Part shown: piece by piece, positions 8,789 through 26,517 of the stretch | Position numbering within the stretch: the stretch's first letter is position 1 | Layout: every line of letters starts with the position of its first letter | Source of the DNA: Escherichia coli | Lineage (GTDB): Bacteria > Pseudomonadota > Gammaproteobacteria > Enterobacterales > Enterobacteriaceae | Direction: 5' to 3' (one strand) | Length of the DNA: 64,000 nt | Assembly: GCF_030013205.1 (NCBI RefSeq) | Contig: NZ_CP122648.1 | The notes under the pieces: model-generated | Seen by the model: the letters and a program-made list of their open reading frames with translations, nothing else | Databases searched by the model: none | What the model was told of the DNA's origin: nothing | Translations under genes and position numbers: made by a program

Positions 8789-10051
8789 CTATTTTAATGG
8801 ATTGTTAATCTTTGCATATTCAAACGGGCTGATACATTGTTCTCTGTTCGCATCCAGAAAATCTGCCCACCACTGTAGCATCAGTCGACGTTCTTCCAGA
8901 TGTTCTGCTTTATGGATATACGCAGCACGTACACCATTACGCTCCTGATGGCTCATCTGACGTTCCACAGCATCGCGGGACCACAAACCTGATTCAATCA
9001 ATGCACTGCACGCCATCGCCCGGAATCCATGGCCACAGACTTCCCGGGTTGTGTCATACCCCATCACCCTCAGGGCTTTATTTACAGTATTTTCACTGAT
9101 TGGTTTACGCGGGTCATGTGCACCCGTAAATATCAGACCATTTTCACCTGCCCATGTCTGAAGTTCCGTCAGTATGGCTACAGCCTGTTTGCTGAGTGGC
9201 ACAAGATGTGGTGTTCGCATCTTGGAGCCCCGGTGTGAGAATTTTACGCCTGGCAGAGGTTCGCGTTCGGCTGGAATAGTCCACATGGCATTGTCAATAT
9301 CAATTTCAGACCAGCGGGCGTATCTGAGTTCACTGGAACGAATAAAAACCAGTAAATTCAGCATAACGGCAAGCTGGGTGACAGGTTGCCCCTTGTAACT
9401 GCCAATACGCGACAAAAGTTCAGGCAGGCGAGAAAGATCAAGAGCGGGGCGATGCTGGCGTTTTACCGTGGTCAATGCACCAGCCATATCCAGAGCCGGG
9501 TTATATCTGATGATGCCAGACTGTACGGCATAACGCATTACAGCAGATATTCTTTGCTGCAGACGACTGGCGATTTCATAAATTTGTTTAGCTTCTGCAG
9601 CACGAACAGGGATAAGCAGGTCCGGGGTACTGAGTGTTGTGATATCCCGGTTGCCGATAAAGGGGAAAACGTGTGTCTCGAGACTTTTGAGTACTTTATC
9701 GCTGTGTGATTGTGCCCATTGTTTATTACTGGCATGCCAGCGTCGTGCAATATGTTCAAAAGAGAGTTGTAAATCAGGGACTACTTTTTTAGCTCTTTTC
9801 TGTTCGCAAGGGTCAACCCCCTCCGAAATCAGTTTTCGGGCCTCATCCCGTTTTGTACGAGCTTCGGAGAGAGAAACTTCCGGATACACACCAAGTGCCA
9901 GGGTTTTCTCCTTACCCAGAATACGATAACGGAGACGCCAGTAACGGGAACCATTAGGATGAACCAGCAGGAACATGCCGGCCCCGTCAGTGAGTTTATA
10001 AGCCTTGTCAGTGGGCTTTGCAGCCCGGATTTTTGCGTCAGTCAGTGCCAT
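8789..10051 (-). CDS. P4-type tyrosine integrase
   Basis: 420-aa ORF beginning MALTDAKIRAAKPTDKAYKL, transcribed away from the adjacent tRNA-Phe 3' end. Confidence 0.9.
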   Translation of the reverse strand: MALTDAKIRAAKPTDKAYKLTDGAGMFLLVHPNGSRYWRLRYRILGKEKTLALGVYPEVSLSEARTKRDEARKLISEGVDPCEQKRAKKVVPDLQLSFEHIARRWHASNKQWAQSHSDKVLKSLETHVFPFIGNRDITTLSTPDLLIPVRAAEAKQIYEIASRLQQRISAVMRYAVQSGIIRYNPALDMAGALTTVKRQHRPALDLSRLPELLSRIGSYKGQPVTQLAVMLNLLVFIRSSELRYARWSEIDIDNAMWTIPAEREPLPGVKFSHRGSKMRTPHLVPLSKQAVAILTELQTWAGENGLIFTGAHDPRKPISENTVNKALRVMGYDTTREVCGHGFRAMACSALIESGLWSRDAVERQMSHQERNGVRAAYIHKAEHLEERRLMLQWWADFLDANREQCISPFEYAKINNPLK

Positions 10052-10204
10052 AGTTCAGCCTTCTGAATGCGTTAAAGAGGGTATAAATTCTGTCGAACTG
10101 GGGTATACCCGCAATTATACCCACACAATGGGGTTGATGTGGGGGGAATCTGGTTGAGTTCGGTAGAATTGATTTGGAGGCAGAACGCTTAAATTGTGGC
10201 GTTC

Positions 10205-10237
10205 TGAAACGAAAAACGGACCTCCGTGGAGGTCCGT
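10205..10237 (-). terminator. intrinsic terminator downstream of tRNA-Phe
   Basis: 9-bp stem ACGGACCTC/GAGGTCCGT with 4-nt loop, followed on the minus strand by a T-run. Confidence 0.6.
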
Positions 10238-10248
10238 TGATATGAATT

Positions 10249-10324
10249 TGGTGCCCGGACTCGGAATCGAACCAAGGACACGGGGATTTTCAATCCCCTG
10301 CTCTACCGACTGAGCTATCCGGGC
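10249..10324 (-). tRNA. pheV: tRNA-Phe (GAA)
   Basis: Exact 76-nt reverse complement of the remembered E. coli tRNA-Phe with anticodon GAA and CCA end; pheV rather than pheU by synteny with yqgA-speC. Confidence 0.95.
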
Positions 10325-10429
10325 AACGGGGCGCATTAAACCTGATTCGCCTCGTCTCGTCAATCAAATTTCTTCAATTTACTGCAGACTGCACAATCTA
10401 TCATCACTTTGCCGCTATTGCACGCATTG

Positions 10430-11158
10430 TCAGGCAAACCAGGCGGTCCAGGCGGCGGAAAGCGGCATTGCCAGAAGGAGTGCTGGAAGCATGTTGACCA
10501 CCGGGAACATTTTAATGCCACAGATGCGTAATCCGGTTGCCAGCAGCAATAAACCGCCTACGGCGCTGAAGTCTGCCATCATCGACGGTGTGGTCAGCGG
10601 TAATATCAGCGCGGCAGCCCACGCCAGCGTTAGCTGGATGATCAGTAATGGGATACTAATTACCGACACCGCAATACCCAGCGAGCAGGCGAAGATCATC
10701 GCCGTAAAGAAATCAAGAAATGACTTGGCGATTAAAATACTCGGATCGCCGGTCATCCCTTCGTTCATCGCCCCGAAGATCCCGGTGCCGCTGGCGCAAA
10801 ACAGGACAATAATCGCGACATAATTCTGAATAAAAGATTCATGCGCTGGCTTCTTACGTGAGTGGCGAAACAGATTTTGTGCTTTGGTGACCGCGGTATT
10901 GACGCCTTTTTCCAGCAGACAAATTTCGCCGATTAATGCACCGAGTAAGGTTGCTAAAACCATCGCCGGAAGGTTGGCGCATTTCACCACCAGTAAAATA
11001 CCAATCCCCAGCGATGCCAGACCAAAAATTGATGTCATGGAGACGCGGATACGTTCCGGTAAGCGTTGGCTAAGGAGTGCACCGAGAACGCCACCCAGTA
11101 ATACTGCACTTGCGTTGATAAAAGGACCGATGACCACAAGAGTTCCTGTTAGCTGCAT
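10430..11158 (-). CDS. yqgA: DUF554-family inner-membrane protein YqgA
   Basis: 242-aa polytopic membrane ORF immediately upstream of pheV, as in K-12. Confidence 0.75.
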   Translation of the reverse strand: MQLTGTLVVIGPFINASAVLLGGVLGALLSQRLPERIRVSMTSIFGLASLGIGILLVVKCANLPAMVLATLLGALIGEICLLEKGVNTAVTKAQNLFRHSRKKPAHESFIQNYVAIIVLFCASGTGIFGAMNEGMTGDPSILIAKSFLDFFTAMIFACSLGIAVSVISIPLLIIQLTLAWAAALILPLTTPSMMADFSAVGGLLLLATGLRICGIKMFPVVNMLPALLLAMPLSAAWTAWFA

Positions 11159-11529
11159 TGTCTGATTTTCTTATTATGACCGTTTGGCACCTTCGATGGC
11201 TTGTTTGTTCGCAAAGTCCTGGCTTGCACGCTCTGGTGAAAGGTGCCATGATTGCGCGAATTTTCTCCTCTCTGTACGGAGTTTGCCCGATGCACGCCAC
11301 CTCCTTACATTCTCTCGCTTATCGCCGTTTCGCGCGAAACTCCTCCCCTTTTCTGCTCATGCGGTGAAGTTAACGCACGCTCACTGCAGGACAACAGTAA
11401 AATCAGAGCGTTTCTGCTTTTACTGATGTCTGGCGGTCGGAGCTGGTGACCAGTTTGACCCATATCTCGTGGGGCAGGGTTTTTCACCTTGTCCGGTATT
11501 CTTACTTCCCCGAAACGGGTTTTGCGCTT

Positions 11530-13665
11530 ATGAAATCAATGAATATTGCCGCCAGTAGTGAACTGGTATCCCGACTTTCTACTCATCGCCGCGTGGTGGC
11601 GTTGGGAGATACTGATTTTACGGACGTCGCGGCAGTCGTCATTACCGCTGCGGATAGCCGCAGTGGCATTCTTGCGTTGCTTAAGCGCACCGGTTTTCAT
11701 CTACCGGTGTTTTTGTATTCCGAACATGTTGTTGAATTACCTGCGGGCGTTACGGCGGTAATCAACGGCAACGAGCAGCAGTGGCTGGAGCTGGAATCCG
11801 CAGCCTGTCAGTATGAAGAGAATTTGCTGCCACCGTTTTATGACACGCTGACGCAGTACGTTGAGATGGGCAACAGCACCTTTGCTTGCCCTGGACATCA
11901 ACATGGTGCGTTCTTTAAAAAGCATCCTGCCGGACGCCATTTTTACGATTTCTTTGGTGAGAACATCTTTCGCGCCGATATGTGTAACGCTGACGTAAAA
12001 TTGGGCGATCTGCTTATTCATGAAGGATCGGCGAAAGATGCGCAGAAATTCGCAGCCAAAGTCTTTCATGCCGATAAAACCTATTTTGTCCTGAACGGCA
12101 CATCGGCAGCGAATAAAGTGGTGACGAATGCGCTGTTAACGCGTGGCGATCTGGTGCTCTTCGACCGTAACAACCATAAGTCGAATCATCACGGCGCGCT
12201 GATTCAGGCGGGGGCGACGCCGGTCTATCTGGAAGCTTCACGTAACCCGTTTGGTTTCATTGGCGGTATTGATGCGCACTGTTTTAATGAAGAGTATCTG
12301 CGCCAGCAAATTCGCGACGTTGCGCCAGAAAAAGCTGAGTTGCCGCGCCCGTTTCGCCTGGCGATTATTCAGCTGGGAACCTATGACGGCACTGTCTATA
12401 ACGCCCGCCAGGTGATCGATACCGTTGGGCATCTGTGTGATTACATTCTGTTTGATTCCGCGTGGGTCGGTTACGAACAATTTATACCGATGATGGCGGA
12501 TAGCTCGCCGCTGCTGTTAGAACTTAACGAAAACGATCCGGGGATTTTTGTGACCCAGTCGGTGCACAAACAGCAGGCGGGATTCTCACAGACGTCGCAG
12601 ATCCATAAAAAAGATAACCATATCCGCGGACAGGCGCGTTTTTGCCCGCATAAGCGGTTGAATAATGCCTTTATGCTCCATGCTTCTACCAGCCCGTTCT
12701 ATCCGCTGTTTGCTGCACTGGACGTTAACGCCAAAATTCATGAAGGGGAGAGTGGGCGTCGGCTGTGGGCGGAGTGTGTTGAGATAGGGATTGAAGCGCG
12801 CAAGGCTATTCTTGCGCACTGTAAGCTGTTCCGCCCGTTTATCCCGCCCGTTGTTGATGGCAAATTGTGGCAGGATTATCCGACATCAGTGTTAGCCAGT
12901 GACCGTCGTTTTTTCAGTTTTGAGCCGGGGGCGAAGTGGCACGGCTTTGAAGGATATGCCGCGGATCAGTATTTTGTTGATCCGTGCAAGCTGTTACTCA
13001 CTACACCAGGTATTAATGCCGAAACTGGCGAATATAGCGACTTTGGCGTTCCGGCGACGATTCTGGCGCACTATCTGCGTGAGAACGGCATTGTGCCGGA
13101 GAAGTGCGATCTCAACTCCATTCTGTTCTTATTAACTCCGGCGGAAAGCCACGAGAAGCTGGCGCAACTGGTGGCGATGCTGGCGCAGTTTGAACAGCAT
13201 ATTGAGGATGACTCGCCGCTGGCTGAGGTGTTGCCGAGCGTTTATAACAAATATCCGGTGCGCTATCGCGACTACACCCTGCGCCAGTTGTGTCAGGAGA
13301 TGCACGATCTGTATGTCAGTTTCGACGTCAAAGACCTACAAAAAGCGATGTTCCGCCAGCAGAGTTTCCCGTCAGTGGTGATGAACCCCCAGGATGCGCA
13401 TAGCGCTTATATTCGCGGTGAAGTGGAGTTGGTGCGGATTCGTGATGCCGAAGGGCGAATTGCGGCAGAAGGGGCGTTGCCTTATCCACCAGGCGTGCTT
13501 TGCGTGGTACCCGGAGAAGTCTGGGGTGGGGCGGTTCAACGTTATTTCCTTGCGCTGGAAGAAGGGGTGAATTTGTTGCCGGGATTTTCGCCGGAGCTGC
13601 AAGGTGTCTATAGCGAAACCGATGCAGATGGCATGAAACGATTGTACGGTTATGTGTTGAAGTAA
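11530..13665 (+). CDS. speC: ornithine decarboxylase, constitutive
   Basis: 711 aa from MKSMNIAASSELVSRL; matches remembered SpeC; six-frame ORF trimmed by 28 aa. Confidence 0.95.
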   Translation: MKSMNIAASSELVSRLSTHRRVVALGDTDFTDVAAVVITAADSRSGILALLKRTGFHLPVFLYSEHVVELPAGVTAVINGNEQQWLELESAACQYEENLLPPFYDTLTQYVEMGNSTFACPGHQHGAFFKKHPAGRHFYDFFGENIFRADMCNADVKLGDLLIHEGSAKDAQKFAAKVFHADKTYFVLNGTSAANKVVTNALLTRGDLVLFDRNNHKSNHHGALIQAGATPVYLEASRNPFGFIGGIDAHCFNEEYLRQQIRDVAPEKAELPRPFRLAIIQLGTYDGTVYNARQVIDTVGHLCDYILFDSAWVGYEQFIPMMADSSPLLLELNENDPGIFVTQSVHKQQAGFSQTSQIHKKDNHIRGQARFCPHKRLNNAFMLHASTSPFYPLFAALDVNAKIHEGESGRRLWAECVEIGIEARKAILAHCKLFRPFIPPVVDGKLWQDYPTSVLASDRRFFSFEPGAKWHGFEGYAADQYFVDPCKLLLTTPGINAETGEYSDFGVPATILAHYLRENGIVPEKCDLNSILFLLTPAESHEKLAQLVAMLAQFEQHIEDDSPLAEVLPSVYNKYPVRYRDYTLRQLCQEMHDLYVSFDVKDLQKAMFRQQSFPSVVMNPQDAHSAYIRGEVELVRIRDAEGRIAAEGALPYPPGVLCVVPGEVWGGAVQRYFLALEEGVNLLPGFSPELQGVYSETDADGMKRLYGYVLK

Positions 13666-13668
13666 GAA

Positions 13669-13703
13669 AAAAACGGGTCACCTTCTGGCGACCCGTTTTT
13701 CTT
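13669..13703. terminator. bidirectional terminator between convergent speC and nupG
   Basis: Hairpin AACGGGTC...GACCCGTT flanked by A-run and T-run. Confidence 0.65.
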
Positions 13704-13710
13704 TGCGTAA

Positions 13711-14967
13711 TTAGTGGCTCACCGTCTGTGTGCCTGTCGGGACACGAACGTGTTTATATTTGAACATCGCCATGAACGCGAAGGCCAGAACCACGGAGTA
13801 ACCAGCGAAAATCAACCATACGGTCTGCCAGTCGGTAATGCCGTTTTGGGTGTACATCTCAACAACTTTACCGCTCACGATGCCGCCAAGGATACAGCCG
13901 AAGCCGTTAGTCATCATCAGGAACATCCCCTGCGCACTGGCGCGAATTGCCGGGCTAACTTCTTTTTCGACAAACACCGAACCAGAGATGTTGAAGAAGT
14001 CGAATGCGCAACCGTAAACGATCATCGACAGTACCAGCAGTACAGTACCGAGCGGAGTCGGGTCGCCGTAAGCAAACAGCGCAAAACGCAGGATCCACGC
14101 CACAATACTGATCATCATTACGTTCTTAATACCGTAGCGGCTTAAGAAGAACGGGATAGTCAGAATGAACAGGGTTTCAGAGATCTGCGAAATCGACATG
14201 ATGATTGACGCATGCTGCACAATAAAGCTGCTGGCAAACATCGGATCTTTGTCGAAGCTGTGCAGGAAGGTGTTACCGAACATGTTGGTAATCTGCAGTT
14301 CCGCGCCCAGCAGCATTGAGAAGATGAAGAAGATTGCCATACGCTTGTTTTTAAACAGCGCGAATGCATCGAGGCCCAGCAGGGTTGTCCAGCTTTGATT
14401 CGCTTGCTGTTTAGCAACCGGAATGTGCGGCAGAGTCAGGGTAAACAGAACCAGAATGGCGGAAAGTGCTGCGCCAATATACAGCTGCATGTGGCTTAAT
14501 TCGAAGCCAGACAGGCTCACCACCCACATTGCCATGATAAAGCCGATGGTGCCCCAGATACGGATTGGCGGGAAGTCAGTAACGATATCCATCCCGGCAT
14601 TTTGCAGGCGATAGTAAGAGATGGTGTTGATTAACCCAAGCGTTGGCATATAAGCAAACGAGTTAATCAATATCACAAGGAACATCGCTTCCGGCGTCGT
14701 GACCTGTGCCGCCATGAACAGCGTGATAGCGCCAATGGTGTGGCAAATGGCATATACCCATTTCGCACTTAACCATTTGTCGGCCACAATCCCCAGCAGC
14801 GCAGGCATAAAGACCGCGGCGATACCCAGTGAACTATAAACTGCGCCAATAGAAGCACCGTCAAACTTCAGGGTAACAAACATATAGGAGCCGAGGGTCG
14901 TCAGCCAACTTCCCCACAGACAGAACTGCAGAAAAGAGAGGATTTTCAGCTGCAGCTTAAGATTCAT
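13711..14967 (-). CDS. nupG: nucleoside:H+ symporter NupG
   Basis: 418 aa from MNLKLQLKILSFLQF; six-frame ORF trimmed by 16 aa. Confidence 0.9.
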   Translation of the reverse strand: MNLKLQLKILSFLQFCLWGSWLTTLGSYMFVTLKFDGASIGAVYSSLGIAAVFMPALLGIVADKWLSAKWVYAICHTIGAITLFMAAQVTTPEAMFLVILINSFAYMPTLGLINTISYYRLQNAGMDIVTDFPPIRIWGTIGFIMAMWVVSLSGFELSHMQLYIGAALSAILVLFTLTLPHIPVAKQQANQSWTTLLGLDAFALFKNKRMAIFFIFSMLLGAELQITNMFGNTFLHSFDKDPMFASSFIVQHASIIMSISQISETLFILTIPFFLSRYGIKNVMMISIVAWILRFALFAYGDPTPLGTVLLVLSMIVYGCAFDFFNISGSVFVEKEVSPAIRASAQGMFLMMTNGFGCILGGIVSGKVVEMYTQNGITDWQTVWLIFAGYSVVLAFAFMAMFKYKHVRVPTGTQTVSH

Positions 14968-21168: not shown

Positions 21169-22176
21169 GTGAAAAAGCAATGGATTGTTGGCACGGCGCT
21201 GCTTATGTTGATGACTGGTAATGTCTGGGCAGATGGCGAACCGCCAACTGAAAATATCTTAAAAGATCAATTCAAAAAGCAGTATCACGGCATTCTCAAG
21301 CTTGATGCTATCAGCTTAAAAAATCTTGATGCTAAGGGTAATCAGGCCACCTGGTCAGCGGAAGGCGATGTCTCTTCCAGTGACGATCTCTATACCTGGG
21401 TCGGTCAGTTGGCAGATTACGAACTGCTCGAACAGACCTGGACGAAAGATAAACCGGTAAAATTTTCGGCGATGTTAACCAGTAAAGGAACGCCCGCGTC
21501 TGGCTGGTCGGTGAACTTTTACTCTTTTCAGGCGGCAGCCAGCGATCGTGGGCGGGTGGTCGACGATATCAAAACGAATAATAAATATCTGATCGTGAAT
21601 AGCGAAGATTTCAATTATCGCTTTAGTCAGCTTGAATCAGCGTTGAATACCCAGAAGAACTCGATTCCTGCGCTGGAAAAGGAAGTGAAAGCGCTTGATA
21701 AGCAAATGGTGGCGGCGCAGAAAGCAGCGGATGCATATTGGGGAAAAGATGCAAACGGTAAGCAAATGACCCGCGAAGACGCCTTTAAAAAAATTCACCA
21801 ACAGCGTGATGAGTTTAATAAACAGAACGATAGCGAGGCTTTCGCGGTTAAATATGACAAAGAGGTTTATCAACCGGCGATTGCGGCATGTCATAAACAG
21901 AGTGAAGAGTGTTATGAAGTGCCGATTCAGCAGAAGCGAGATTTCGATATCAACGAACAACGGCGACAGACTTTTCTGCAATCACAAAAACTTAGCCGTA
22001 AATTGCAGGATGACTGGATAACGCTCGAAAAAGGGCAATATCCGTTAACGATGAAAGTTTCAGAAATAAACAGTAAAAAAGTCGCTATTTTGATGAAAAT
22101 TGATGATATCAACCAGGCTAATGAACGCTGGAAAAAAGATACCGAACAATTGCGGCGCAATGGAGTGATTAAGTAA
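21169..22176 (+). CDS. yggM: DUF1202 protein YggM
   Basis: 335-aa ORF with signal peptide; apparent GTG start. Confidence 0.85.
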   Translation: MKKQWIVGTALLMLMTGNVWADGEPPTENILKDQFKKQYHGILKLDAISLKNLDAKGNQATWSAEGDVSSSDDLYTWVGQLADYELLEQTWTKDKPVKFSAMLTSKGTPASGWSVNFYSFQAAASDRGRVVDDIKTNNKYLIVNSEDFNYRFSQLESALNTQKNSIPALEKEVKALDKQMVAAQKAADAYWGKDANGKQMTREDAFKKIHQQRDEFNKQNDSEAFAVKYDKEVYQPAIAACHKQSEECYEVPIQQKRDFDINEQRRQTFLQSQKLSRKLQDDWITLEKGQYPLTMKVSEINSKKVAILMKIDDINQANERWKKDTEQLRRNGVIK

Positions 22177-22191
22177 CTCATGTTAAGTACC

Positions 22192-22234
22192 TTTGCCGGA
22201 TAATATAAAAAGTTATCCGGCAAATTATTTTTTA
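22192..22234. terminator. terminator after yggM, overlapping the stop of the convergent TRAP permease gene
   Basis: TTTGCCGGATAA...TTATCCGGCAAA stem followed by TTATTTTTT. Confidence 0.7.
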
Positions 22235-23533
22235 CATTAGCCCTAGTAGCTGTGGAATGAACAAGGATATTTGCGGGATGTAAGTGATCATCATCAACGC
22301 GATTAACAATGCGGCATAAAATGGCAGCAATGGTTTGATCAAATGTTGAATCTTCACACCTGAAATAGAACAACCAACAAATAGCGCACTACCCACCGGC
22401 GGTGTTAACAGCCCAATACAAAGGTTAGCCACCATCATAATACCGAAATGTACCGGATCCATTCCCAGCTCTTGTGCAATCGGCAAGAAGATTGGTGTGA
22501 AGATTAGTACAGCCGGTGTCATGTCCATAAAGATGCCGACAATTAATAAGACGATATTAATCAGCAGCAATATGATCAGTGGGTTATCAGAAATCCCCAT
22601 CAATGCGTCGCTGATCATATAAGGAATATCAGCATTGGTCATTGCCCAGGACATGCCCACGGAAAAACCGATCAACAGTAATACAATCGAAGTGGTAACA
22701 ACCGATTCCAGAATCAGTTTGGGTAAATCGCGCCATTTTACTTCCCGGTAAATCAGCACCGAGAGAATAAATGTGTAGACAACGGCAATTGCTGACGCTT
22801 CAGTTGCGGTAAAAATGCCGCCCAGAATGCCGCCCATTACAATGAACACCAGAAGCAAACTTGGTAAGGCATCCAGAAAAGCTTTACATGCCTGAGCAAA
22901 GGTTGCTCTTTCTGAAAGTGGGTAGCCACGGCGTTTAGCAATAATGCCGCAGACTATCATTACCGCGAGACCCATTAAGATCCCTGGCAAATATCCCGCC
23001 ATAAATAACGATGCTACAGAAACGCCGCCAGCTGTCAGGGAAAACACAATTAACACGTTTGAGGGCGGTATCAGTAATCCAGTAATACAAGATGAGACGT
23101 TTACAGCGGTAGAAAATGCCGGATCATAACCTTCTTTGGTCTGAATGGGATTCAGTGTGCCACCAACGGCAGCAGCTGCCGCAACGGCTGAACCAGAAAT
23201 GGAACCAAACATCATATTCGCCAGGACGTTCACATGACCAAGCGAACCAGGAACGCGGCCAACCATTACCTGGGCGAGGTTAATCAAACGTATCGCAATA
23301 CCGCCGCTGTTCATCAGCGTTCCGGCAAAGATGAAAAAGGGGATTGCCAATAGGGCAAAGTTATCCAGTCCATTAGCCAGTCGCTGCGAAACAGTGATTG
23401 CCGCGATATCCCAGGGAAACATCAACAGCATTGAAGCTACAGTGGCAATACCGATTGAGAACGAAATGGGCACACCAATAAAGACCAGCACAAAAAAACA
23501 GCCAAACAGTGTAAGCGCGATATAACTATCCAT
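22232..23533 (-). CDS. TRAP transporter large permease (DctM family)
   Basis: 433-aa polytopic ORF; start overlaps the DctQ-like stop. Confidence 0.85.
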   Translation of the reverse strand: MDSYIALTLFGCFFVLVFIGVPISFSIGIATVASMLLMFPWDIAAITVSQRLANGLDNFALLAIPFFIFAGTLMNSGGIAIRLINLAQVMVGRVPGSLGHVNVLANMMFGSISGSAVAAAAAVGGTLNPIQTKEGYDPAFSTAVNVSSCITGLLIPPSNVLIVFSLTAGGVSVASLFMAGYLPGILMGLAVMIVCGIIAKRRGYPLSERATFAQACKAFLDALPSLLLVFIVMGGILGGIFTATEASAIAVVYTFILSVLIYREVKWRDLPKLILESVVTTSIVLLLIGFSVGMSWAMTNADIPYMISDALMGISDNPLIILLLINIVLLIVGIFMDMTPAVLIFTPIFLPIAQELGMDPVHFGIMMVANLCIGLLTPPVGSALFVGCSISGVKIQHLIKPLLPFYAALLIALMMITYIPQISLFIPQLLGLM

Positions 23534-24045
23534 TAACTGGCCTCCTGCGCAGGTTGTTTCAGTTGTTGAATGCTTTGATTAATAAAACACAAGGCATAAA
23601 ACATCATCACCAATCCACTTAATGGCAGAATGATATATACGTATCCCATCGGTATTTGCATCGCGGCAGATACCTGTGATGTTGCCAGTGTTTTATCAAT
23701 TAATTTCAGGCCACCAGTCACAATGACCGAACCGGCAAAACCTAAAATAAGAACGTTAATGACTATACTAAGAAGTAATTGCTTGCGCTTATTCAGGGCG
23801 AGAGCAAATAAATCGATAGAGAGATGTCTCTGCGCGCCGACGGTATATGCAGCACCTAATAATCCTACCCAGATCATCAAAAAGCGTGCCAGTTCATCGG
23901 TTAATGTACTTGGCTGGTTAAGTACGTAGCGGCTAAATACTTGCCAGACTACGCATACAACCAGAGCAAGCATTACGGCGACAGAAAACGCGGCAATGAC
24001 GCGGTCTACCGCAAGTTTCAGGCGGTTAAATATCATTGTAAGCAT
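23533..24045 (-). CDS. TRAP transporter small permease (DctQ family)
   Basis: 170-aa four-helix membrane ORF between the binding-protein and DctM genes. Confidence 0.8.
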   Translation of the reverse strand: MLTMIFNRLKLAVDRVIAAFSVAVMLALVVCVVWQVFSRYVLNQPSTLTDELARFLMIWVGLLGAAYTVGAQRHLSIDLFALALNKRKQLLLSIVINVLILGFAGSVIVTGGLKLIDKTLATSQVSAAMQIPMGYVYIILPLSGLVMMFYALCFINQSIQQLKQPAQEAS

Positions 24046-24080
24046 CCTGGAAAATCAGGGCCAGAGACTGGCCCGAAATA

Positions 24081-25067
24081 TTATTGAGCAGCGTTGTCGA
24101 ATTTCTCTAACAAAGCAGCTTGTTTTGGATCTTTTTTGAAGTCGTCAAACAGAGGTTGAACTGCGGCACGGAATGGGGCTTTATCAACCTTAACGATTTC
24201 ACCACCCATAGCTTTCGCCTGAGCACGTGTGTCAGCGTCAATTTTTTCCCACAATTTTTGTTGATAAGCTTCGGATTTCTTCGCCGCTGTTTCGAGGATT
24301 TGTTGCTGTTCTGGGGTTAATTTATTCCATGTTTTAGTGGAGATAACCAAAAAGTCAGGAATTGAGGCATGTTCATCTTCAGAAAAGACTTTGGCAATTT
24401 CGATATGTCGAGTCTGCACCCAGGAAGGCACGTTATTTTCTGCGCCATCTACTACACCTTGTTGCATCGCAGTATAAACTTCGCCAAATGAAATTGGAGT
24501 GGGTGAGCCACCCATCAGTTCAATCATTTTGATGGTGGTCGGGCTTGGCTGAACACGAATTTTCAGCCCTTTAAGATCTTCTGGCTTAGTAATCGGTTTT
24601 TTCGCATAGAAACTGCGAGTACCCGCTACATAAGCTGATAAAGCAAAAAAGCCTTTATCTTTTGTTGAATCCATAATTTCTTTACCAACTTCACCAAAAA
24701 CCACTTTGTTGAAGTGCGCCTGATCTTTAAATAAGAACGGCAAATTATAGATAGCATAAATATTATCAAAAGACTCCAGATCACTGGCGGAACCTTTGGT
24801 CATATCCAGTGCACCATTTTGCAACAACTCCATAGTTTCTCGCGCATTACCCATCTGGCTGCTGGGGTAAATACGGATCACCATATTACCTTTTGACAGC
24901 TGTTTTACTTCTTTCGCCAGCTCTTCAAAACTCTGATGTACAACATGACTTCTTTCCAGGTTGTGTGCTAACTTTAACGTCACTTTTTCTGCGGCGTTTA
25001 CGCCAGTGCTAACCAGAGCCAGCAAGGATGCGCAGACTAATGAGCGGGTAAATGACCTCATTTTCAT
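24081..25067 (-). CDS. TRAP transporter substrate-binding protein (DctP family)
   Basis: 328-aa ORF with signal peptide (MKMRSFTRSLVCASLLALVSTGVNA), first gene of a P-Q-M operon. Confidence 0.85.
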   Translation of the reverse strand: MKMRSFTRSLVCASLLALVSTGVNAAEKVTLKLAHNLERSHVVHQSFEELAKEVKQLSKGNMVIRIYPSSQMGNARETMELLQNGALDMTKGSASDLESFDNIYAIYNLPFLFKDQAHFNKVVFGEVGKEIMDSTKDKGFFALSAYVAGTRSFYAKKPITKPEDLKGLKIRVQPSPTTIKMIELMGGSPTPISFGEVYTAMQQGVVDGAENNVPSWVQTRHIEIAKVFSEDEHASIPDFLVISTKTWNKLTPEQQQILETAAKKSEAYQQKLWEKIDADTRAQAKAMGGEIVKVDKAPFRAAVQPLFDDFKKDPKQAALLEKFDNAAQ

Positions 25068-25352
25068 AAAAAAACTCCCTGTTGAAGAATGGAAATTGGT
25101 TGATATCTAATTGTGCTTATCAGTGCTTTGTGCGACAAATTGGTTAACCTGTCTGACAACTTGTCTATGTTTATCACAACTTGAAATAAAGTCAGAAATT
25201 AAATATTAATTTTGTGCGCCAGGTTGTACATGTTTATAATCAATAAATGATGAGTAAATATTCACTAAATATATATAATAAATATCGTCGATATTTATTC
25301 AGTAAGAAATATATTTTTGCCGAAGTTAATTAACGGGGGGGTAAAAGAAGTG

Positions 25353-25378
25353 ATTAATGCGCCCGCAGGCGCATTAAT
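25353..25378 (-). terminator. perfect hairpin immediately downstream of the hemW stop
   Basis: ATTAATGCGCC-cgca-GGCGCATTAAT, 11-bp perfect stem; only a weak U-tract follows. Confidence 0.45.
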
Positions 25379-25380
25379 GA

Positions 25381-26517
25381 TTACTCAGCGAGGAATAATT
25401 CAAGAAGTGAGTTTAAGAATAATTTACCATGCTCGGTTATCTGCCAGTAATCCGCACATTTTGTGAGATAACCCTGAGCGATAGCCTCGTCTAACTGTGG
25501 GCGAATAACTTCTTCAGAAAGGCCAGTATACTGGCTAAACTCTACGCGCGGCGCGGCTTCCAGCAGACGGAAGCGATTCATAAAGAACTCAAACGGTTTA
25601 TCTGCAGCTTCGACATCACGCTGGCTTTCCAGATACCTTCCTTGCATAAAACCACGCGGATGACGCGTTTTGGTGGTACGCAGAATGCGACCATCCGGGA
25701 AGGTGACTTTGCCGTGCGCGCCGCAGCCAATACCGATGTAGTCGCCAAATCGCCAGTAGTTGAGATTGTGCTGGCACTGATAACCGGGTTTGGCGTAAGC
25801 GGATGTTTCATACTGCTGATAGCCCGCTGCGGTTAATAACTGATGCCCCTGTTCGAATATATCCCACAACGCATCGTCGTCCGGCAGCACCGGCGGGCGA
25901 GAGCCAAACAGCGTATTAGGTTCGATGGTCAGTTGATACCAGGAAAGATGCGGCGGATTCAGTTCAATAGCCTGGCGCAGATCGCCTAGCGCCTCTTCCA
26001 GTGATTGATCCGGCAGCCCATGCATCAAATCAAGGTTAAAGCTACGTAACCCTAAACCGCTCGCCAGCTTCGCAGCTCGTTTCGCTTCTTGCGGGCCATG
26101 AATGCGCCCAAGTCGTTTCAGCTTTTCTTCACTAAAACTCTGCACACCAATAGAGATGCGGTTCACACCAGCACGCTGATAATCGACAAAGCGATCGGCT
26201 TCAACCGTACCAGGGTTCGCTTCCATAGTAATTTCTGCATCCGCTGCCAGCGGCAAACGCGCACGCACGCCGTCCAGCAGCGTTTGCATCGCCGGGCCGG
26301 AAAGCAGGCTCGGCGTACCACCGCCAATAAAGATTGTCTGCACTTCACGGCCCTGAGCGTAAGCCACATCGTTGTCCAGATCGTTAAGCAGATGCTGAAC
26401 ATAATCGTCGTGCGGCACTTCTCCTTTCAACGCGTGAGAGTTGAAATCGCAGTACGGGCATTTCTGCACGCACCACGGGATGTGAATGTAGAGACTCAGC
26501 GGCGGTAATTTAACCAT
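25381..26517 (-). CDS. hemW: radical-SAM heme chaperone HemW (YggW)
   Basis: 378-aa ORF with CxxxCxYC radical-SAM motif ([14 protein letters not shown]). Confidence 0.9.

What the first reader, a model, noticed from the sequence alone, without database searches (positions are those of the whole stretch)
22232..25380. Orphan TRAP transporter operon inserted between yggM and hemW
A complete DctP-DctQ-DctM operon (substrate-binding protein with signal peptide, small and large permeases) sits between yggM and hemW, where K-12 has, as far as I recall, no transporter. It has its own 313-bp AT-rich upstream region and shares the yggM terminator. There is no adjacent regulator or catabolic gene, so the substrate is unknown. 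K-12 carries only one TRAP system (yiaMNO), elsewhere.
Basis: partly seen in the sequence, partly recalled or inferred. Interest (0 to 1): 0.55.

Follow-up and report, generated by a model that had tools for sequence, protein, structure and literature searches.

The report
Ancestral hexuronate-type TRAP transporter, variably lost
This is a genuine three-gene TRAP uptake system that 27% of E. coli carry between hemW and yggM; it is an old enterobacterial gene cluster lost by K-12 rather than an insertion, and it most likely scavenges the sugar acids glucuronate and galacturonate under the hexuronate repressors ExuR/UxuR.

Summary
An intact dctP-dctQ-dctM operon lies on the minus strand at 22232-25067. 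It has a 313-bp AT-rich leader and sits between yggM and hemW. It is not a yiaMNO copy. K-12, B strains, O157:H7 and O145 have only 64-242 bp of REP elements at this site.

"Inserted" is not supported. dctP occurs in 1476 of 5426 complete E. coli genomes, always at this site. The same rdgB-hemW-dctPQM-yggN order holds in Citrobacter, Klebsiella, Kluyvera, Phytobacter and some Salmonella. The operon's divergence matches that of hemW, dN/dS is about 0.02-0.06, and there are no mobile-element hallmarks. It is ancestral and has been lost from most E. coli.

"Substrate unknown" can be narrowed. Three independent lines point to D-glucuronate/D-galacturonate:
- The 14 closest solved binding proteins by sequence, and the 16 closest chains by fold (rmsd 1.2-1.5 Å), all belong to one group, for which every ligand I could check is a hexuronate.
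- Homologues 55-60% identical sit inside uxaCBA/uxuAB clusters, three of the four next to exuR.
- The promoter holds the best matches in the 64-kb window to ExuR- and UxuR-type operators, at a position conserved across genera.

This is a new, uncharacterised member of a known kind. Interest is moderate to low.

The parts
24081..25067 (-). dctP: periplasmic substrate-binding protein (328 aa; probable signal peptide residues 1-25, VNA/AE)
   Evidence: ORF. TIGR00787 scores 285.7 bits against a cut-off of 175. The best PDB sequence hits are the hexuronate-binding SBP group, E 4e-68 to 1e-50. The AF2 model has pLDDT 94.9 and superposes on that group at rmsd 1.2-1.5 Å. R151 and R171 are invariant in 118 diverse homologues.
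23533..24036 (-). dctQ: small membrane subunit (167 aa). The ORF listing gives an upstream ATG at 24045, but 24036 is the better start.
   Evidence: RefSeq and all orthologues use the 167-aa form. AGGA lies 8 nt upstream of the ATG at 24036. The protein is homologous to the Q part of the SiaQM structures 7qha, 8y4w and 7qe5. Orthologues carry Pfam PF04290.
22232..23533 (-). dctM: large membrane subunit (433 aa). Its ATG overlaps the dctQ stop (TAATG), which suggests translational coupling.
   Evidence: TIGR00786 scores 472.9 bits against a cut-off of 268. PDB hits are 7qha_B at E 1.6e-92 and SiaT (7qe5, 8thi) at E about 1e-82. The overlap and the AGGAGG upstream are read.
25068..25380 (-). 313-bp AT-rich leader and regulatory region of the operon
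   Evidence: The proximal ~130 bp is conserved across genera and among E. coli alleles, while the distal part is not. No consensus sigma-70 promoter was found on this strand, so the transcription start is unknown.
25145..25162 (-). Box A, ExuR-type operator candidate AAGTTGTCAGACAGGTTA (core TGT-N3-ACA), centred about 87 nt upstream of the ATG (the 17-mer starts at -95)
   Evidence: It differs at 3 of 18 positions from the exuT-proximal box AAGTTGTATGACAAGTTA and is the only such match in 64 kb (0.04 expected). It ranks 1 of 63,984 positions with a PWM trained on the exuT, exuR, uxaB and uxaC boxes. The same box starts at -84 to -98 in 20 of the 23 orthologous loci scanned, and it is the top PWM hit of the ~15-kb locus in 13 of those 20.
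25137..25154 (-). Box B, UxuR-type operator candidate AGACAGGTTAACCAATTT. It overlaps box A and is specific to Escherichia.
   Evidence: It contains GGTTAACCAATTT, identical to the core of the uxuA-proximal box. This is the only match in the window (0.04 expected for up to 1 mismatch). It ranks 1 of 63,983 with the uxuA/uxuR-trained PWM. It is absent from the other genera.
25125..25141 (-). Box C, second TGT-N3-ACA box AATTTGTCGCACAAAGC (the palindrome TTTGT-CGC-ACAAA), 21 bp downstream of box A
   Evidence: It ranks 8th in the window with the ExuR-type PWM. The equivalent box (for example AATATGTCATACAGAAA) is at the same 21-bp offset in Klebsiella, Kluyvera, Citrobacter, Pluralibacter, Buttiauxella and Hafnia.
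25093..25110 (-). Conserved block TTAGATATCAACCAATTT, 28-45 nt upstream of the ATG. Its role is unknown; it could be a promoter element or a further half-site.
   Evidence: AGATAT..ACCA is invariant across E. coli, Salmonella, Klebsiella and Kluyvera. It resembles the uxaC-proximal ATCACACCAATTTCC. It is only a weak PWM hit.
24058..24074 (-). GC-rich hairpin between dctP and dctQ (GGGCCAG-TCT-CTGGCCC). It may attenuate transcription or stabilise the mRNA so that the binding protein is made in excess.
   Evidence: -13.5 kcal/mol, but z only -1.8, so weak evidence. The functional reading is an inference from the usual excess of SBP over membrane subunits noted in PMC7660916.
22192..22224 (.). 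Hairpin shared by the convergent yggM and dctM genes; a bidirectional terminator candidate
   Evidence: The fold is -18.4 kcal/mol (z -4.8) on the + strand with a U-run, and -16 kcal/mol (z -4.2) on the - strand without a good U-run.
25353..25378 (-). hemW terminator hairpin, which separates hemW transcription from the TRAP leader
   Evidence: -17.2 kcal/mol, z -5.6. The same hairpin sequence is present in the Salmonella locus.
21169..22176 (+). yggM (DUF1202), the left flank. It is 99% identical to K-12 up to its last 123 bp, which were not binned separately.
25381..26517 (-). hemW, the right flank. Its last 200 nt (25381-25580) is a mosaic hypervariable segment in E. coli.
   Evidence: TIGR00539 scores 473.5 bits. 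Divergence profile.

Best explanation
[quoted passage not shown] DctP is exported to the periplasm, where it captures an organic acid through its carboxylate-clamping arginines (R171, with R151 and N211). It then delivers the ligand to the DctQ-DctM membrane unit, an elevator-type, ion-gradient-driven secondary carrier of the SiaQM kind.

The most likely substrates are the hexuronates D-glucuronate and/or D-galacturonate. They would then enter the core UxaC/UxaB/UxaA and UxuB/UxuA pathway. This would give carriers a high-affinity scavenging route alongside the MFS carrier ExuT.

The operon has no linked regulator. It is probably repressed in trans by ExuR, and in Escherichia also by UxuR, through two or three operators whose 17-18-nt boxes start 74-95 nt upstream of dctP. 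Hexuronates would induce it.

The cluster is ancestral at the hemW locus of Enterobacteriaceae. In about 73% of E. coli genomes, including K-12, B, O157:H7 and O145, it has been replaced by REP elements. It is kept under purifying selection in the rest, for example in ST131.

Shown by the evidence: gene content, family membership, fold, synteny, prevalence, selection and the sequence matches to operators. Inferred: the substrate, the regulator, the coupling ion and the fitness role.
For: TRAP identity:
- NCBIfam scores are above the cut-offs.
- DctM and DctQ are homologous to solved SiaQM structures.
- The high-confidence SBP model has pLDDT 94.9.

Substrate, line 1 (closest solved relatives):
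- The top 14 PDB sequences by phmmer and by family profile, and the top 16 chains by fold search, are one coherent group: 4OVR, 4N15/4N17/4LN5, 4MHF/4MIJ, 4X8R, 4N91, 4N8Y, 4XFE, 4PF8, 4P1L/4P3L, 4OVQ and 4NG7/4X04.
- There is a clear gap before SiaP and the other SBPs.
- Papers read here confirm ligands for four of them: galacturonate for 4N8Y and glucuronate for 4X8R (PMC11668362), and glucuronate for 4N91 and 4MHF, whose protein Bpro_3107 also binds galacturonate (PMC7660916). 4N15 appears there only as the modelling template for STM3169.
- The R150/R170/N210 triad of the glucuronate binder STM3169 corresponds to R151/R171/N211 here.

Substrate, line 2 (gene neighbourhood of homologues):
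- In Aeromonas rivuli, A. molluscorum and Pantoea sp. IMH, homologues 60% identical lie between uxaC-uxaB-uxaA and exuR.
- An Oceanospirillales homologue lies among uxaA, uxaC, uxuB and uxuA.

Substrate and regulation, line 3 (operators):
- The exact 13-mer of the uxuA operator core and a 3-mismatch copy of the exuT box are each unique in the 64-kb window, and both fall in this 313-bp leader.
- PWMs trained only on K-12 hexuronate promoters rank these sites first in the window.
- The ExuR-type box starts at -84 to -98 in 20 of the 23 orthologous loci scanned and is the top hit of the ~15-kb locus in 13 of those 20; a second box lies 21 bp downstream in 13 of the 23.
- The operator block is conserved even in an E. 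coli promoter allele that is only 88.5% identical overall.

Ancestry:
- Synteny holds across genera.
- Nucleotide identity to Salmonella, Citrobacter and Klebsiella is 79/81/76% for dctP and 79/81/78% for hemW, and dN/dS is 0.02-0.06.
- dctP is present in 1476 of 5426 E. coli genomes, single-copy and chromosomal apart from one plasmid match, with alleles down to 94% identity.
- No tRNA, Rfam element or border repeats of note are present.
Against: - Identity to the solved hexuronate binders is only 30-40%. At that level specificity can shift among sugar acids.
- The glucuronate-specific residues reported for STM3169 and Apre_1383 (N35-Q36, E74, D237) are only partly matched here (H35-N36-L37; E77; D238). 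I could not obtain STM3169 itself for a proper alignment.
- Ligands of 4OVR, 4N15, 4PF8, 4P1L, 4OVQ and 4XFE rest on my memory, because the PDB titles returned were truncated.
- I picked the operator training boxes by eye from known ExuR/UxuR-regulated promoters, not from footprints.
- No sigma-70 promoter could be placed.
- The E. coli locus has no linked catabolic gene. In Edwardsiella, Buttiauxella, Mangrovibacter and Hafnia the neighbours are uninformative.
- Some lineages carry IS-disrupted copies, so the system is dispensable.
Confidence: 0.62

Rival explanations
1. It is a working TRAP transporter, ancestral as described, but its substrate is a different carboxylate, and the conserved TGT-N3-ACA boxes are read by a FadR-subfamily regulator other than ExuR/UxuR. 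Candidate substrates include an aldonic or keto-deoxy sugar acid such as KDG, gulonate or galactonate, or an unsaturated uronate or glucuronide-derived acid.
For: Identity to the hexuronate-binding structures is only 30-40%. Residues around position 35-37 differ from the glucuronate-specific set in PMC7660916. The operator core is generic to the family. Enterobacterial loci have no linked catabolic genes. STM3169 gave a thermal-shift signal with galactonate, which shows how close these specificities lie.
Against: Every one of the closest solved relatives belongs to the hexuronate group; none is an aldonate, KDG or sialate binder. The 60%-identical homologues are embedded in uxa clusters with exuR. 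The matches are to the specific flanks of the exuT and uxuA boxes (15 of 18 positions, and 13 of 13), not merely to the generic core.
Confidence: 0.25
2. This is the first reader's reading: the operon is a horizontally acquired accessory island that was inserted between yggM and hemW in a subset of E. coli.
For: It is present in only 27% of E. coli genomes. Operon GC is 44% against 50.5% for the window. Empty sites contain no TRAP remnants. The adjacent hemW 3' end is unusually divergent.
Against: The position is the same in Citrobacter, Klebsiella, Kluyvera, Pseudocitrobacter, Phytobacter, an Escherichia sp. and some Salmonella. Divergence from those genera equals that of hemW. E. coli alleles span 94-100% identity. 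There are no mobility genes, tRNA or border repeats. yggM next door has the same low GC. The hemW 3' hypervariability does not sort by TRAP status.
Confidence: 0.05
3. The operon is a decaying relic that no longer contributes to fitness in E. coli and is on its way to being lost.
For: Most E. coli have lost it. IS3 sits in dctM in O111:H8. IS1 insertions and a truncated dctP occur in other strains.
Against: The ORFs are intact in all but a few of the sampled carriers. dN/dS is 0.02-0.06 between genera and 0-0.13 within E. coli. The promoter's operator block is conserved while its distal part drifts. Translational coupling and ribosome-binding sites are intact.
Confidence: 0.05
4. It is a C4-dicarboxylate DctPQM system, as the generic annotation of its relatives suggests, or a second 2,3-diketo-L-gulonate (YiaMNO-type) system.
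For: PDB relatives are named 'TRAP dicarboxylate transporter, DctP subunit'. YiaN and YiaM appear among the weaker NCBIfam hits.
Against: Those names are generic depositor labels. Genuine C4-dicarboxylate DctP proteins (9dsy, 9dtl, 9ht3) score E about 1e-31 to 1e-33, against 1e-68 for the hexuronate group. YiaM and YiaN score far below their equivalog cut-offs, and YiaO is not hit at all. There is no dctBD two-component system nearby.
Confidence: 0.02

Closest known systems
STM3169-STM3171 of Salmonella Typhimurium (D-glucuronate TRAP transporter; PMC7660916)
   Same: Both are enterobacterial three-gene TRAP operons with no linked catabolic or regulatory genes. The binding protein belongs to the hexuronate group and shares the conserved Arg/Arg/Asn triad (R150/R170/N210 versus R151/R171/N211 here). 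The proposed role is the same: a high-affinity partner to ExuT that feeds the Uxu/Uxa pathway.
   Different: The chromosomal locus and the lineage differ. This protein has H35-N36-L37 where STM3169 has N35-Q36. The Salmonella protein that is 90% identical to ours sits at hemW-yggM, and the paper's inventory of LT2 TRAP systems lists none there. Binding, affinity and a virulence phenotype are shown for STM3169; nothing is shown for this system.
Structural-genomics hexuronate-binding TRAP SBPs: Bamb_6123 (4LN5/4N15/4N17), Xaut (4OVR), Bpro_3107 (4MHF/4MIJ), Rsph17029_2138 (4X8R), Apre_1383 (4N91), BBta_0128 (4N8Y)
   Same: These are the best sequence and structure matches: E down to 4e-68, rmsd 1.2-1.3 Å and target-normalised TM 0.95-0.97. 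The carboxylate-binding residues are conserved.
   Different: Identity is only 34-40%. Two of the listed positions carry conservative substitutions relative to 4OVR (E77/D, D238/E). The hosts are alpha- and beta-proteobacteria or Firmicutes.
uxaCBA-dctPQM-exuR clusters of Aeromonas rivuli, A. molluscorum and Pantoea sp. IMH (L057-L059)
   Same: DctP is 60% identical and DctM 75% identical, with the same gene order. A related operator-like box, AGATGTTnTACCAATT, lies upstream of dctP.
   Different: There the transporter is physically linked to the galacturonate-branch enzymes and to exuR. In E. coli and its relatives it is unlinked.
YiaMNO of E. coli K-12 (2,3-diketo-L-gulonate TRAP)
   Same: It has the same transporter architecture. 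It is the only TRAP system of K-12 according to my own knowledge. PMC7660916 cites YiaO as characterised.
   Different: It is a distant paralogue: YiaN scores 297 bits against a cut-off of 800, YiaM 38 against 260, and YiaO is not hit. The locus, substrate and regulation all differ.
ExuT (MFS hexuronate:H+ symporter of E. coli)
   Same: The predicted substrates and regulator are the same. The TRAP box A matches the exuT-proximal box at 15 of 18 positions.
   Different: It is an unrelated protein family with no binding protein. It is a core gene in E. coli, whereas the TRAP system is variable. Lower affinity is expected (an argument made in PMC7660916).
SiaPQM (sialic acid TRAP; structures 7qha, 7qe5, 8thi) and GaaPQM of Agrobacterium (galacturonate TRAP, cited in PMC5812351)
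   Same: These are the mechanistic paradigms: the SBP docks on an elevator-type QM unit. DctM matches 7qha_B at E 1.6e-92.
   Different: The SiaP substrate differs, and its fold superposes worse (rmsd 2.2-4 Å). Whether the coupling ion here is Na+ or H+ is unknown. GaaPQM was not compared directly.

Membership tests
TRAP transporter, DctP-type (TC 2.A.56) | Three components (binding protein P, small membrane subunit Q, large membrane subunit M) encoded together | tested here: met
   The ORFs are contiguous and co-oriented, and the Q stop overlaps the M start.
TRAP transporter, DctP-type (TC 2.A.56) | P and M subunits reach the curated family thresholds, and Q is recognisable | tested here: met
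   TIGR00787 285.7 against 175, and TIGR00786 472.9 against 268. Q is homologous to SiaQ chains in the PDB, and orthologues carry PF04290.
TRAP transporter, DctP-type (TC 2.A.56) | Conserved arginine in the SBP that clamps the substrate carboxylate (SiaP R147 equivalent) | tested here: met
   R171 (and R151) are invariant in 118 homologues of 30-90% identity and align with the arginines of 4OVR and 4N15. The correspondence to STM3169 R170 is by numbering offset.
TRAP transporter, DctP-type (TC 2.A.56) | SBP-dependent, ion-gradient-driven uptake | not testable with these tools
   This needs transport assays.
Hexuronate-binding TRAP SBP group (Vetting et al. 2015 cluster; STM3169) | Closest characterised relatives bind D-glucuronate or D-galacturonate | tested here: met
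   The top 14 sequences by sequence and profile, and the top 16 chains by fold, belong to this group. Ligands are confirmed in papers for 4N8Y, 4X8R, 4N91 and 4MHF. The others rest on memory.
Hexuronate-binding TRAP SBP group (Vetting et al. 2015 cluster; STM3169) | Binding-site residues: the Arg/Arg/Asn triad plus the Asn-Gln, Glu and Asp of the glucuronate-specific members | tested here: inconclusive
   The triad is present (R151, R171, N211). N36, E77 and D238 are present, but Q36 is replaced (L37), and the positions are mapped by offset only. The paper notes that Bpro_3107 uses alternative residues.
Hexuronate-binding TRAP SBP group (Vetting et al. 2015 cluster; STM3169) | Genomic association with uxa/uxu catabolic genes | tested here: inconclusive
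   This is not met at the E. coli locus or in other Enterobacteriaceae. It is met for the 55-60%-identical homologues in Aeromonas, Pantoea and Oceanospirillales.
Hexuronate-binding TRAP SBP group (Vetting et al. 2015 cluster; STM3169) | Measured high-affinity binding of a hexuronate | not testable with these tools
   This needs purified protein.
ExuR/UxuR (hexuronate) regulon of E. coli | Operator matching those of known regulon members, located in the promoter region | tested here: met
   The matches are unique in 64 kb and rank first with PWMs. Position and sequence are conserved across genera and across E. coli alleles. Caveat: I selected the training boxes from known regulon promoters, not from footprints.
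ExuR/UxuR (hexuronate) regulon of E. coli | Repressor binding, and derepression by hexuronates or in exuR/uxuR mutants | not testable with these tools
   This needs EMSA, reporter or RNA-seq data from a carrier strain.
YiaMNO (2,3-diketo-L-gulonate TRAP) | Scores at or above the NCBIfam equivalog cut-offs for YiaM, YiaN and YiaO | tested here: not met
   YiaM 38.1 against 260, YiaN 296.6 against 800, and no YiaO hit.
Horizontally acquired genomic island | Mobility genes, tRNA or att-type repeats at the borders, and a phylogeny or position discordant with the flanks | tested here: not met
   There is no tRNA, and only chance-level short repeats. No integrase or IS is present in this window's locus. 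The locus is syntenic in other genera and diverged as much as hemW.

The most novel reading that the evidence does not exclude
The operon is a hidden, unlinked member of the ExuR/UxuR regulon that provides high-affinity hexuronate scavenging. Its presence or absence is a long-standing polymorphism in E. coli maintained by niche-dependent selection rather than neutral decay: it is retained in lineages such as ST131 and lost or IS-inactivated in others. It would then contribute measurably to colonisation of gut, urinary or inflamed niches where glucuronate and galacturonate are scarce, in parallel with the virulence role reported for the Salmonella paralogue STM3169.
Probability: 0.2. Interest if true: 0.55.

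Novelty: new member of a known kind. Interest (0 to 1): 0.33.

Why it matters
Hexuronates are gut carbon sources for E. coli. One preprint read here reports parallel exuT mutations during adaptation to the inflamed mouse gut. A related Salmonella TRAP binding protein for glucuronate is linked to survival in macrophages (PMC7660916).

If about a quarter of E. coli, including the pandemic ST131 lineage, carry an extra high-affinity hexuronate uptake route that K-12 lacks, then K-12-based models of hexuronate use and of the ExuR/UxuR regulon are incomplete for those strains. The locus also gives a simple, testable case of a regulon member that is unlinked from both its regulator and its pathway.

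The practical gain is modest. It amounts to a specific substrate and regulator prediction for genes that RefSeq currently labels only as 'TRAP transporter' subunits.

Tried and rejected
- **First AF2 run.** With an 18-sequence, 84-90%-identical MSA the model had pLDDT 44 and was discarded. A 118-sequence MSA fixed this.
- **Papers not held.** I tried to read Vetting et al. 2015, Suvorova et al. 2011 and Bates Utz et al. 2004 for ligands and the published ExuR/UxuR motifs, but none is held. I took operator boxes directly from K-12 promoters instead.
- **A wrong recollection.** I recalled 'uehABC' as a hexuronate TRAP name. The literature search showed it is an ectoine system, so I dropped it.
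- **STM3169 sequence.** I tried to reach it through a 52-55%-identical Atlantibacter paralogue. That protein has the same AHNL motif as ours, so it is not STM3169, and I stopped there.
- **Introgression hypothesis.** I suspected two deep TRAP+/TRAP- haplotypes because the hemW 3' end is only 83% identical to K-12. With more strains the segment proved mosaic and did not sort by TRAP status. It is kept only as a side observation.
- **Independent deletions.** I considered this because the empty-site spacers measure 64, 68, 154 and 242 bp. They share the same REP-bearing ends and differ by REP/BIME copy number, so a single origin of the empty allele is more likely.
- **Microhomology.** A 9-nt repeat (AGTGATTAA) lies near both borders (D6). 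It does not explain the empty sites, which carry REP sequence rather than the predicted junction.
- **Promoter scan.** The sigma-70 consensus scan found no promoter on the operon strand in the leader. A conserved TGTGA about 120 nt upstream might be a CRP half-site, but I did not pursue it.
- **Neighbours elsewhere.** The operon's neighbours in Edwardsiella, Buttiauxella, Mangrovibacter and Hafnia are unrelated housekeeping genes, apart from a weak polysaccharide-lyase-like hit in Mangrovibacter.
- **Other negatives.** There are no Rfam elements or riboswitches. Searches for 'yggM' and for TRAP plus hexuronate plus E. coli found no paper describing this operon.

Full report
**1. The observation.** The window carries three co-oriented minus-strand ORFs between yggM (21169-22176, +) and hemW (25381-26517, -):
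- a 328-aa DctP-type binding protein (24081-25067);
- a small membrane subunit (23533-24036);
- a 433-aa large membrane subunit (22232-23533).

NCBIfam places the first and third well above the curated TRAP thresholds. The YiaM and YiaN equivalog models score far below theirs, so the operon is not a copy of yiaMNO. The leader (25068-25380) is 313 bp with GC of about 0.35.

The 55-bp spacer to yggM contains one hairpin (22192-22224) that is stable on both strands. hemW has its own strong terminator hairpin at 25353-25378. The better dctQ start is 24036, with AGGA 8 nt upstream and a 167-aa product as in all orthologues. The dctQ stop overlaps the dctM start (TAATG).

**2. Presence and absence in E. 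coli.**
- The whole locus is found in 1460 of 5426 complete genomes, always at this site.
- dctP alone is found in 1476 genomes (27.2%). It is single-copy, and all but one of its 1479 matches are chromosomal. Alleles fall at ≥99% (705 genomes), 95-99% (737) and 90-95% (34) identity.
- Carriers include ETEC4067 (100% identical), O25b:H4-ST131 (intact), NCTC86 and ECC-1470.
- O111:H8 carries it with IS3 in dctM. A few strains have IS1 insertions or truncations.
- K-12/DH1, BLR(DE3), O157:H7 and O145 lack it.
- Empty sites hold only REP/BIME sequence of 64, 68, 154 or 242 bp. They share the same ends and contain no TRAP remnants.

**3. Inserted or ancestral?** A Salmonella enterica protein 90% identical to DctP is encoded at the same hemW-yggM position. 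The same is true of the Klebsiella variicola and Kluyvera georgiana orthologues.

A scan of species-representative genomes found orthologues (81-100% aa identity) in three groups:
- an Escherichia sp., plus Citrobacter, Klebsiella, Kluyvera, Pseudocitrobacter, Pluralibacter and Phytobacter;
- Buttiauxella, Mangrovibacter and Enterobacillus;
- Hafnia and Edwardsiella.

A tblastn map shows rdgB-hemW-dctPQM-(yggM/ansB)-yggN in every member of the first group.

Nucleotide identity of dctP to Salmonella, Citrobacter and Klebsiella (79, 81, 76%) equals that of the adjacent hemW (79, 81, 78%). dN/dS is 0.02-0.06. There is no tRNA, no mobility gene and no border repeat beyond chance. The operon is therefore ancestral at this locus and was lost from most E. 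coli. 'Inserted' is the wrong polarity.

**4. What it transports.** Three independent lines point to hexuronates.

(a) *Solved relatives.* The closest PDB sequences, both for the single protein and for a 118-member family profile, form one block: 4OVR, 4N15/4N17/4LN5, 4MHF/4MIJ, 4X8R, 4N91, 4N8Y, 4XFE, 4PF8, 4NG7/4X04, 4OVQ and 4P1L. A clear gap separates them from all other TRAP binding proteins. A high-confidence model (pLDDT 94.9) superposes on the same block at rmsd 1.2-1.5 Å, whereas SiaP superposes at 2.2-4 Å.

Papers read here state that 4N8Y holds galacturonate and 4X8R glucuronate. They also state that Apre_1383 (4N91) binds glucuronate and that Bpro_3107 (4MHF) binds both glucuronate and galacturonate; Bamb_6123 (4N15) appears only as the modelling template for STM3169. 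Ligands for the remaining entries are from my memory.

The Arg/Arg/Asn triad of the glucuronate binder STM3169 is present as R151/R171/N211. R151 and R171 are invariant across 118 homologues. Identity to these structures is only 30-40%, so specificity is inferred, not shown.

(b) *Gene neighbourhood.* Homologues 60% identical in Aeromonas rivuli, A. molluscorum and Pantoea sp. IMH lie between uxaC-uxaB-uxaA and exuR. An Oceanospirillales homologue lies among uxaA, uxaC, uxuB and uxuA.

(c) *Regulatory signals.* See section 5.

**5. How it is probably regulated.** I took the promoter regions of known hexuronate-regulon genes from a K-12-type genome: uxaC/exuT, exuR, uxaB, gntP/uxuA and uxuR. 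I then extracted their shared boxes. They fall into two types:
- an ExuR-promoter type, for example exuT AAGTTGTATGACAAGTTA;
- a uxu-promoter type, for example uxuA GTGGTTAACCAATTTC.

The TRAP leader contains three boxes:
- AAGTTGTCAGACAGGTTA (25145-25162), which is 3 mismatches from the exuT box;
- overlapping it, GGTTAACCAATTT (25137-25149), identical to the uxuA box core;
- the palindrome TTTGT-CGC-ACAAA, 21 bp further downstream.

Each of the first two is the only such match in 64 kb, with 0.04 expected. PWMs trained only on the K-12 boxes rank these sites first of about 64,000 positions.

The ExuR-type box starts at -84 to -98 from the dctP ATG in 20 of the 23 orthologous loci scanned. 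It is the top PWM hit of the ~15-kb locus in 13 of those 20. A second box lies 21 bp downstream in 13 of the 23. The exuR-linked clusters of Aeromonas and Pantoea carry a related box.

Within E. coli the operator block is conserved even in a promoter allele that is only 88.5% identical overall. The uxuA-type box is specific to Escherichia.

This fits trans-repression by ExuR, plus UxuR in E. coli, and explains the absence of a linked regulator. Two caveats apply. I chose the boxes from known promoters rather than from footprints, and the TGT-N3-ACA core is common to FadR-subfamily regulators. No sigma-70 promoter could be assigned.

**6. Mechanism.** By homology, DctQ and DctM correspond to the SiaQM membrane unit whose structures are solved (7qha, 7qe5, 8thi). 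From established knowledge of TRAP systems, the ligand-closed binding protein docks on this unit. An elevator movement of the M transport domain then carries the substrate inward, driven by an ion gradient. The ion used here is unknown.

The dctP-dctQ hairpin (24058-24074) may favour excess binding protein, but its stability is not exceptional (z -1.8).

**7. Comparison and novelty.** The system is a member of the DctP-type TRAP family; all testable defining features are met. It falls within the hexuronate-binding group by similarity. It is not YiaMNO, not a C4-dicarboxylate DctPQM, and not the orthologue of Salmonella STM3169-71, which has a different locus and a different N-terminal binding motif. 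No paper in the searchable library describes it, and RefSeq labels it generically.

I rate it a new member of a known kind. It is useful as a specific substrate and regulator prediction and as a well-documented presence/absence polymorphism, but it would not surprise a specialist.

**8. Confidence.**

| Claim | Confidence |
|---|---|
| TRAP identity | about 0.99 |
| Ancestral position with loss in K-12 | about 0.9 |
| Hexuronate substrate | about 0.7 |
| ExuR/UxuR control | about 0.6 |
| Joint statement | about 0.6 |

Noticed in passing
window 25381-25580 (last 200 nt of hemW), compared with L001, L012-L015, L018, L066-L068: The 3' end of hemW is hypervariable within E. coli. Pairwise identity is 80-96%, against about 70-72% between E. 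coli and Salmonella at the same sites. Across 5,425 genomes the last 260 nt falls into identity bands of ≥99% (18 genomes), 95-99% (917), 90-95% (1423) and 80-90% (3067) relative to this window. Protein changes are few. The alleles are mosaic and do not sort by TRAP presence; for example, the TRAP+ O111:H8 allele is closer to K-12's than to this window's. On the yggM side, identity stays at 99% up to the last 123 bp of the gene, which were not binned separately.
   Followed up: partly
Empty sites: L001 3278-3431, L012 478-545, L014 478-719, L015 5278-5341, L069 1259-1500: Genomes without the operon have REP/BIME elements in its place, with copy-number variation (64, 68, 154 and 242 bp) but shared end sequences. 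This suggests one origin of the empty allele followed by REP expansion.
   Followed up: partly
L067 40-2654 (O111:H8), H2 and H123 (IS1), H130 (truncated dctP): Several carrier lineages have inactivated copies: IS3 inside dctM in O111:H8, an IS1 within the locus in strain E03, IS1 inside dctP in 2014C-3011, and a dctP match covering only 60% of the gene in a dog isolate.
   Followed up: partly
window 25137-25149, compared with other genera: Only Escherichia has the uxuA-type core GGTTAACCAATTT between the two conserved TGT-N3-ACA boxes. Klebsiella and Kluyvera have GGATAATATG there, which looks like a -10 element. The promoter architecture may therefore have been rewired in Escherichia.
   Followed up: partly
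L059 (Pantoea sp. IMH) 2096-14800: In this Pantoea the uxaA-uxaB-uxaC / dctPQM / exuR cluster lies only about 3 kb from rdgB-hemW. This hints that a fuller hexuronate cluster may once have sat next to hemW and been reduced to the transporter alone in Enterobacteriaceae.
   Followed up: no
window 21169-22176 (yggM), and L022, L026, L027, L033, L035, L056, L019-L021: yggM is itself low in GC (44%) and poorly conserved. It is only 33-38% identical in Klebsiella, Kluyvera and Phytobacter, and absent in Citrobacter, where ansB follows dctM directly. In a Pluralibacter MAG, ansB lies between hemW and dctP.
   Followed up: no
L016, L017, L065: Contigs labelled as Collinsella sp. and Bacillota MAGs carry this locus at 99-100% identity to E. 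coli. An Oceanobacillus assembly has a 332-bp fragment matching at 87%. These are almost certainly contaminating enterobacterial contigs in those bins.
   Followed up: no
window about 25178-25190 (minus strand, about 120 nt upstream of dctP): A TGTGA motif (AAGTTGTGATAAACATAGACA) is conserved in E. coli, Klebsiella and Kluyvera upstream of the operator boxes. It could be a CRP half-site, as expected for a catabolite-controlled sugar-acid system, but the second half is poor.
   Followed up: no
window 24036-24045: The mechanical ORF list starts dctQ at the ATG at 24045 (170 aa). The ribosome-binding site, RefSeq and all orthologues support the ATG at 24036 (167 aa).
   Followed up: yes
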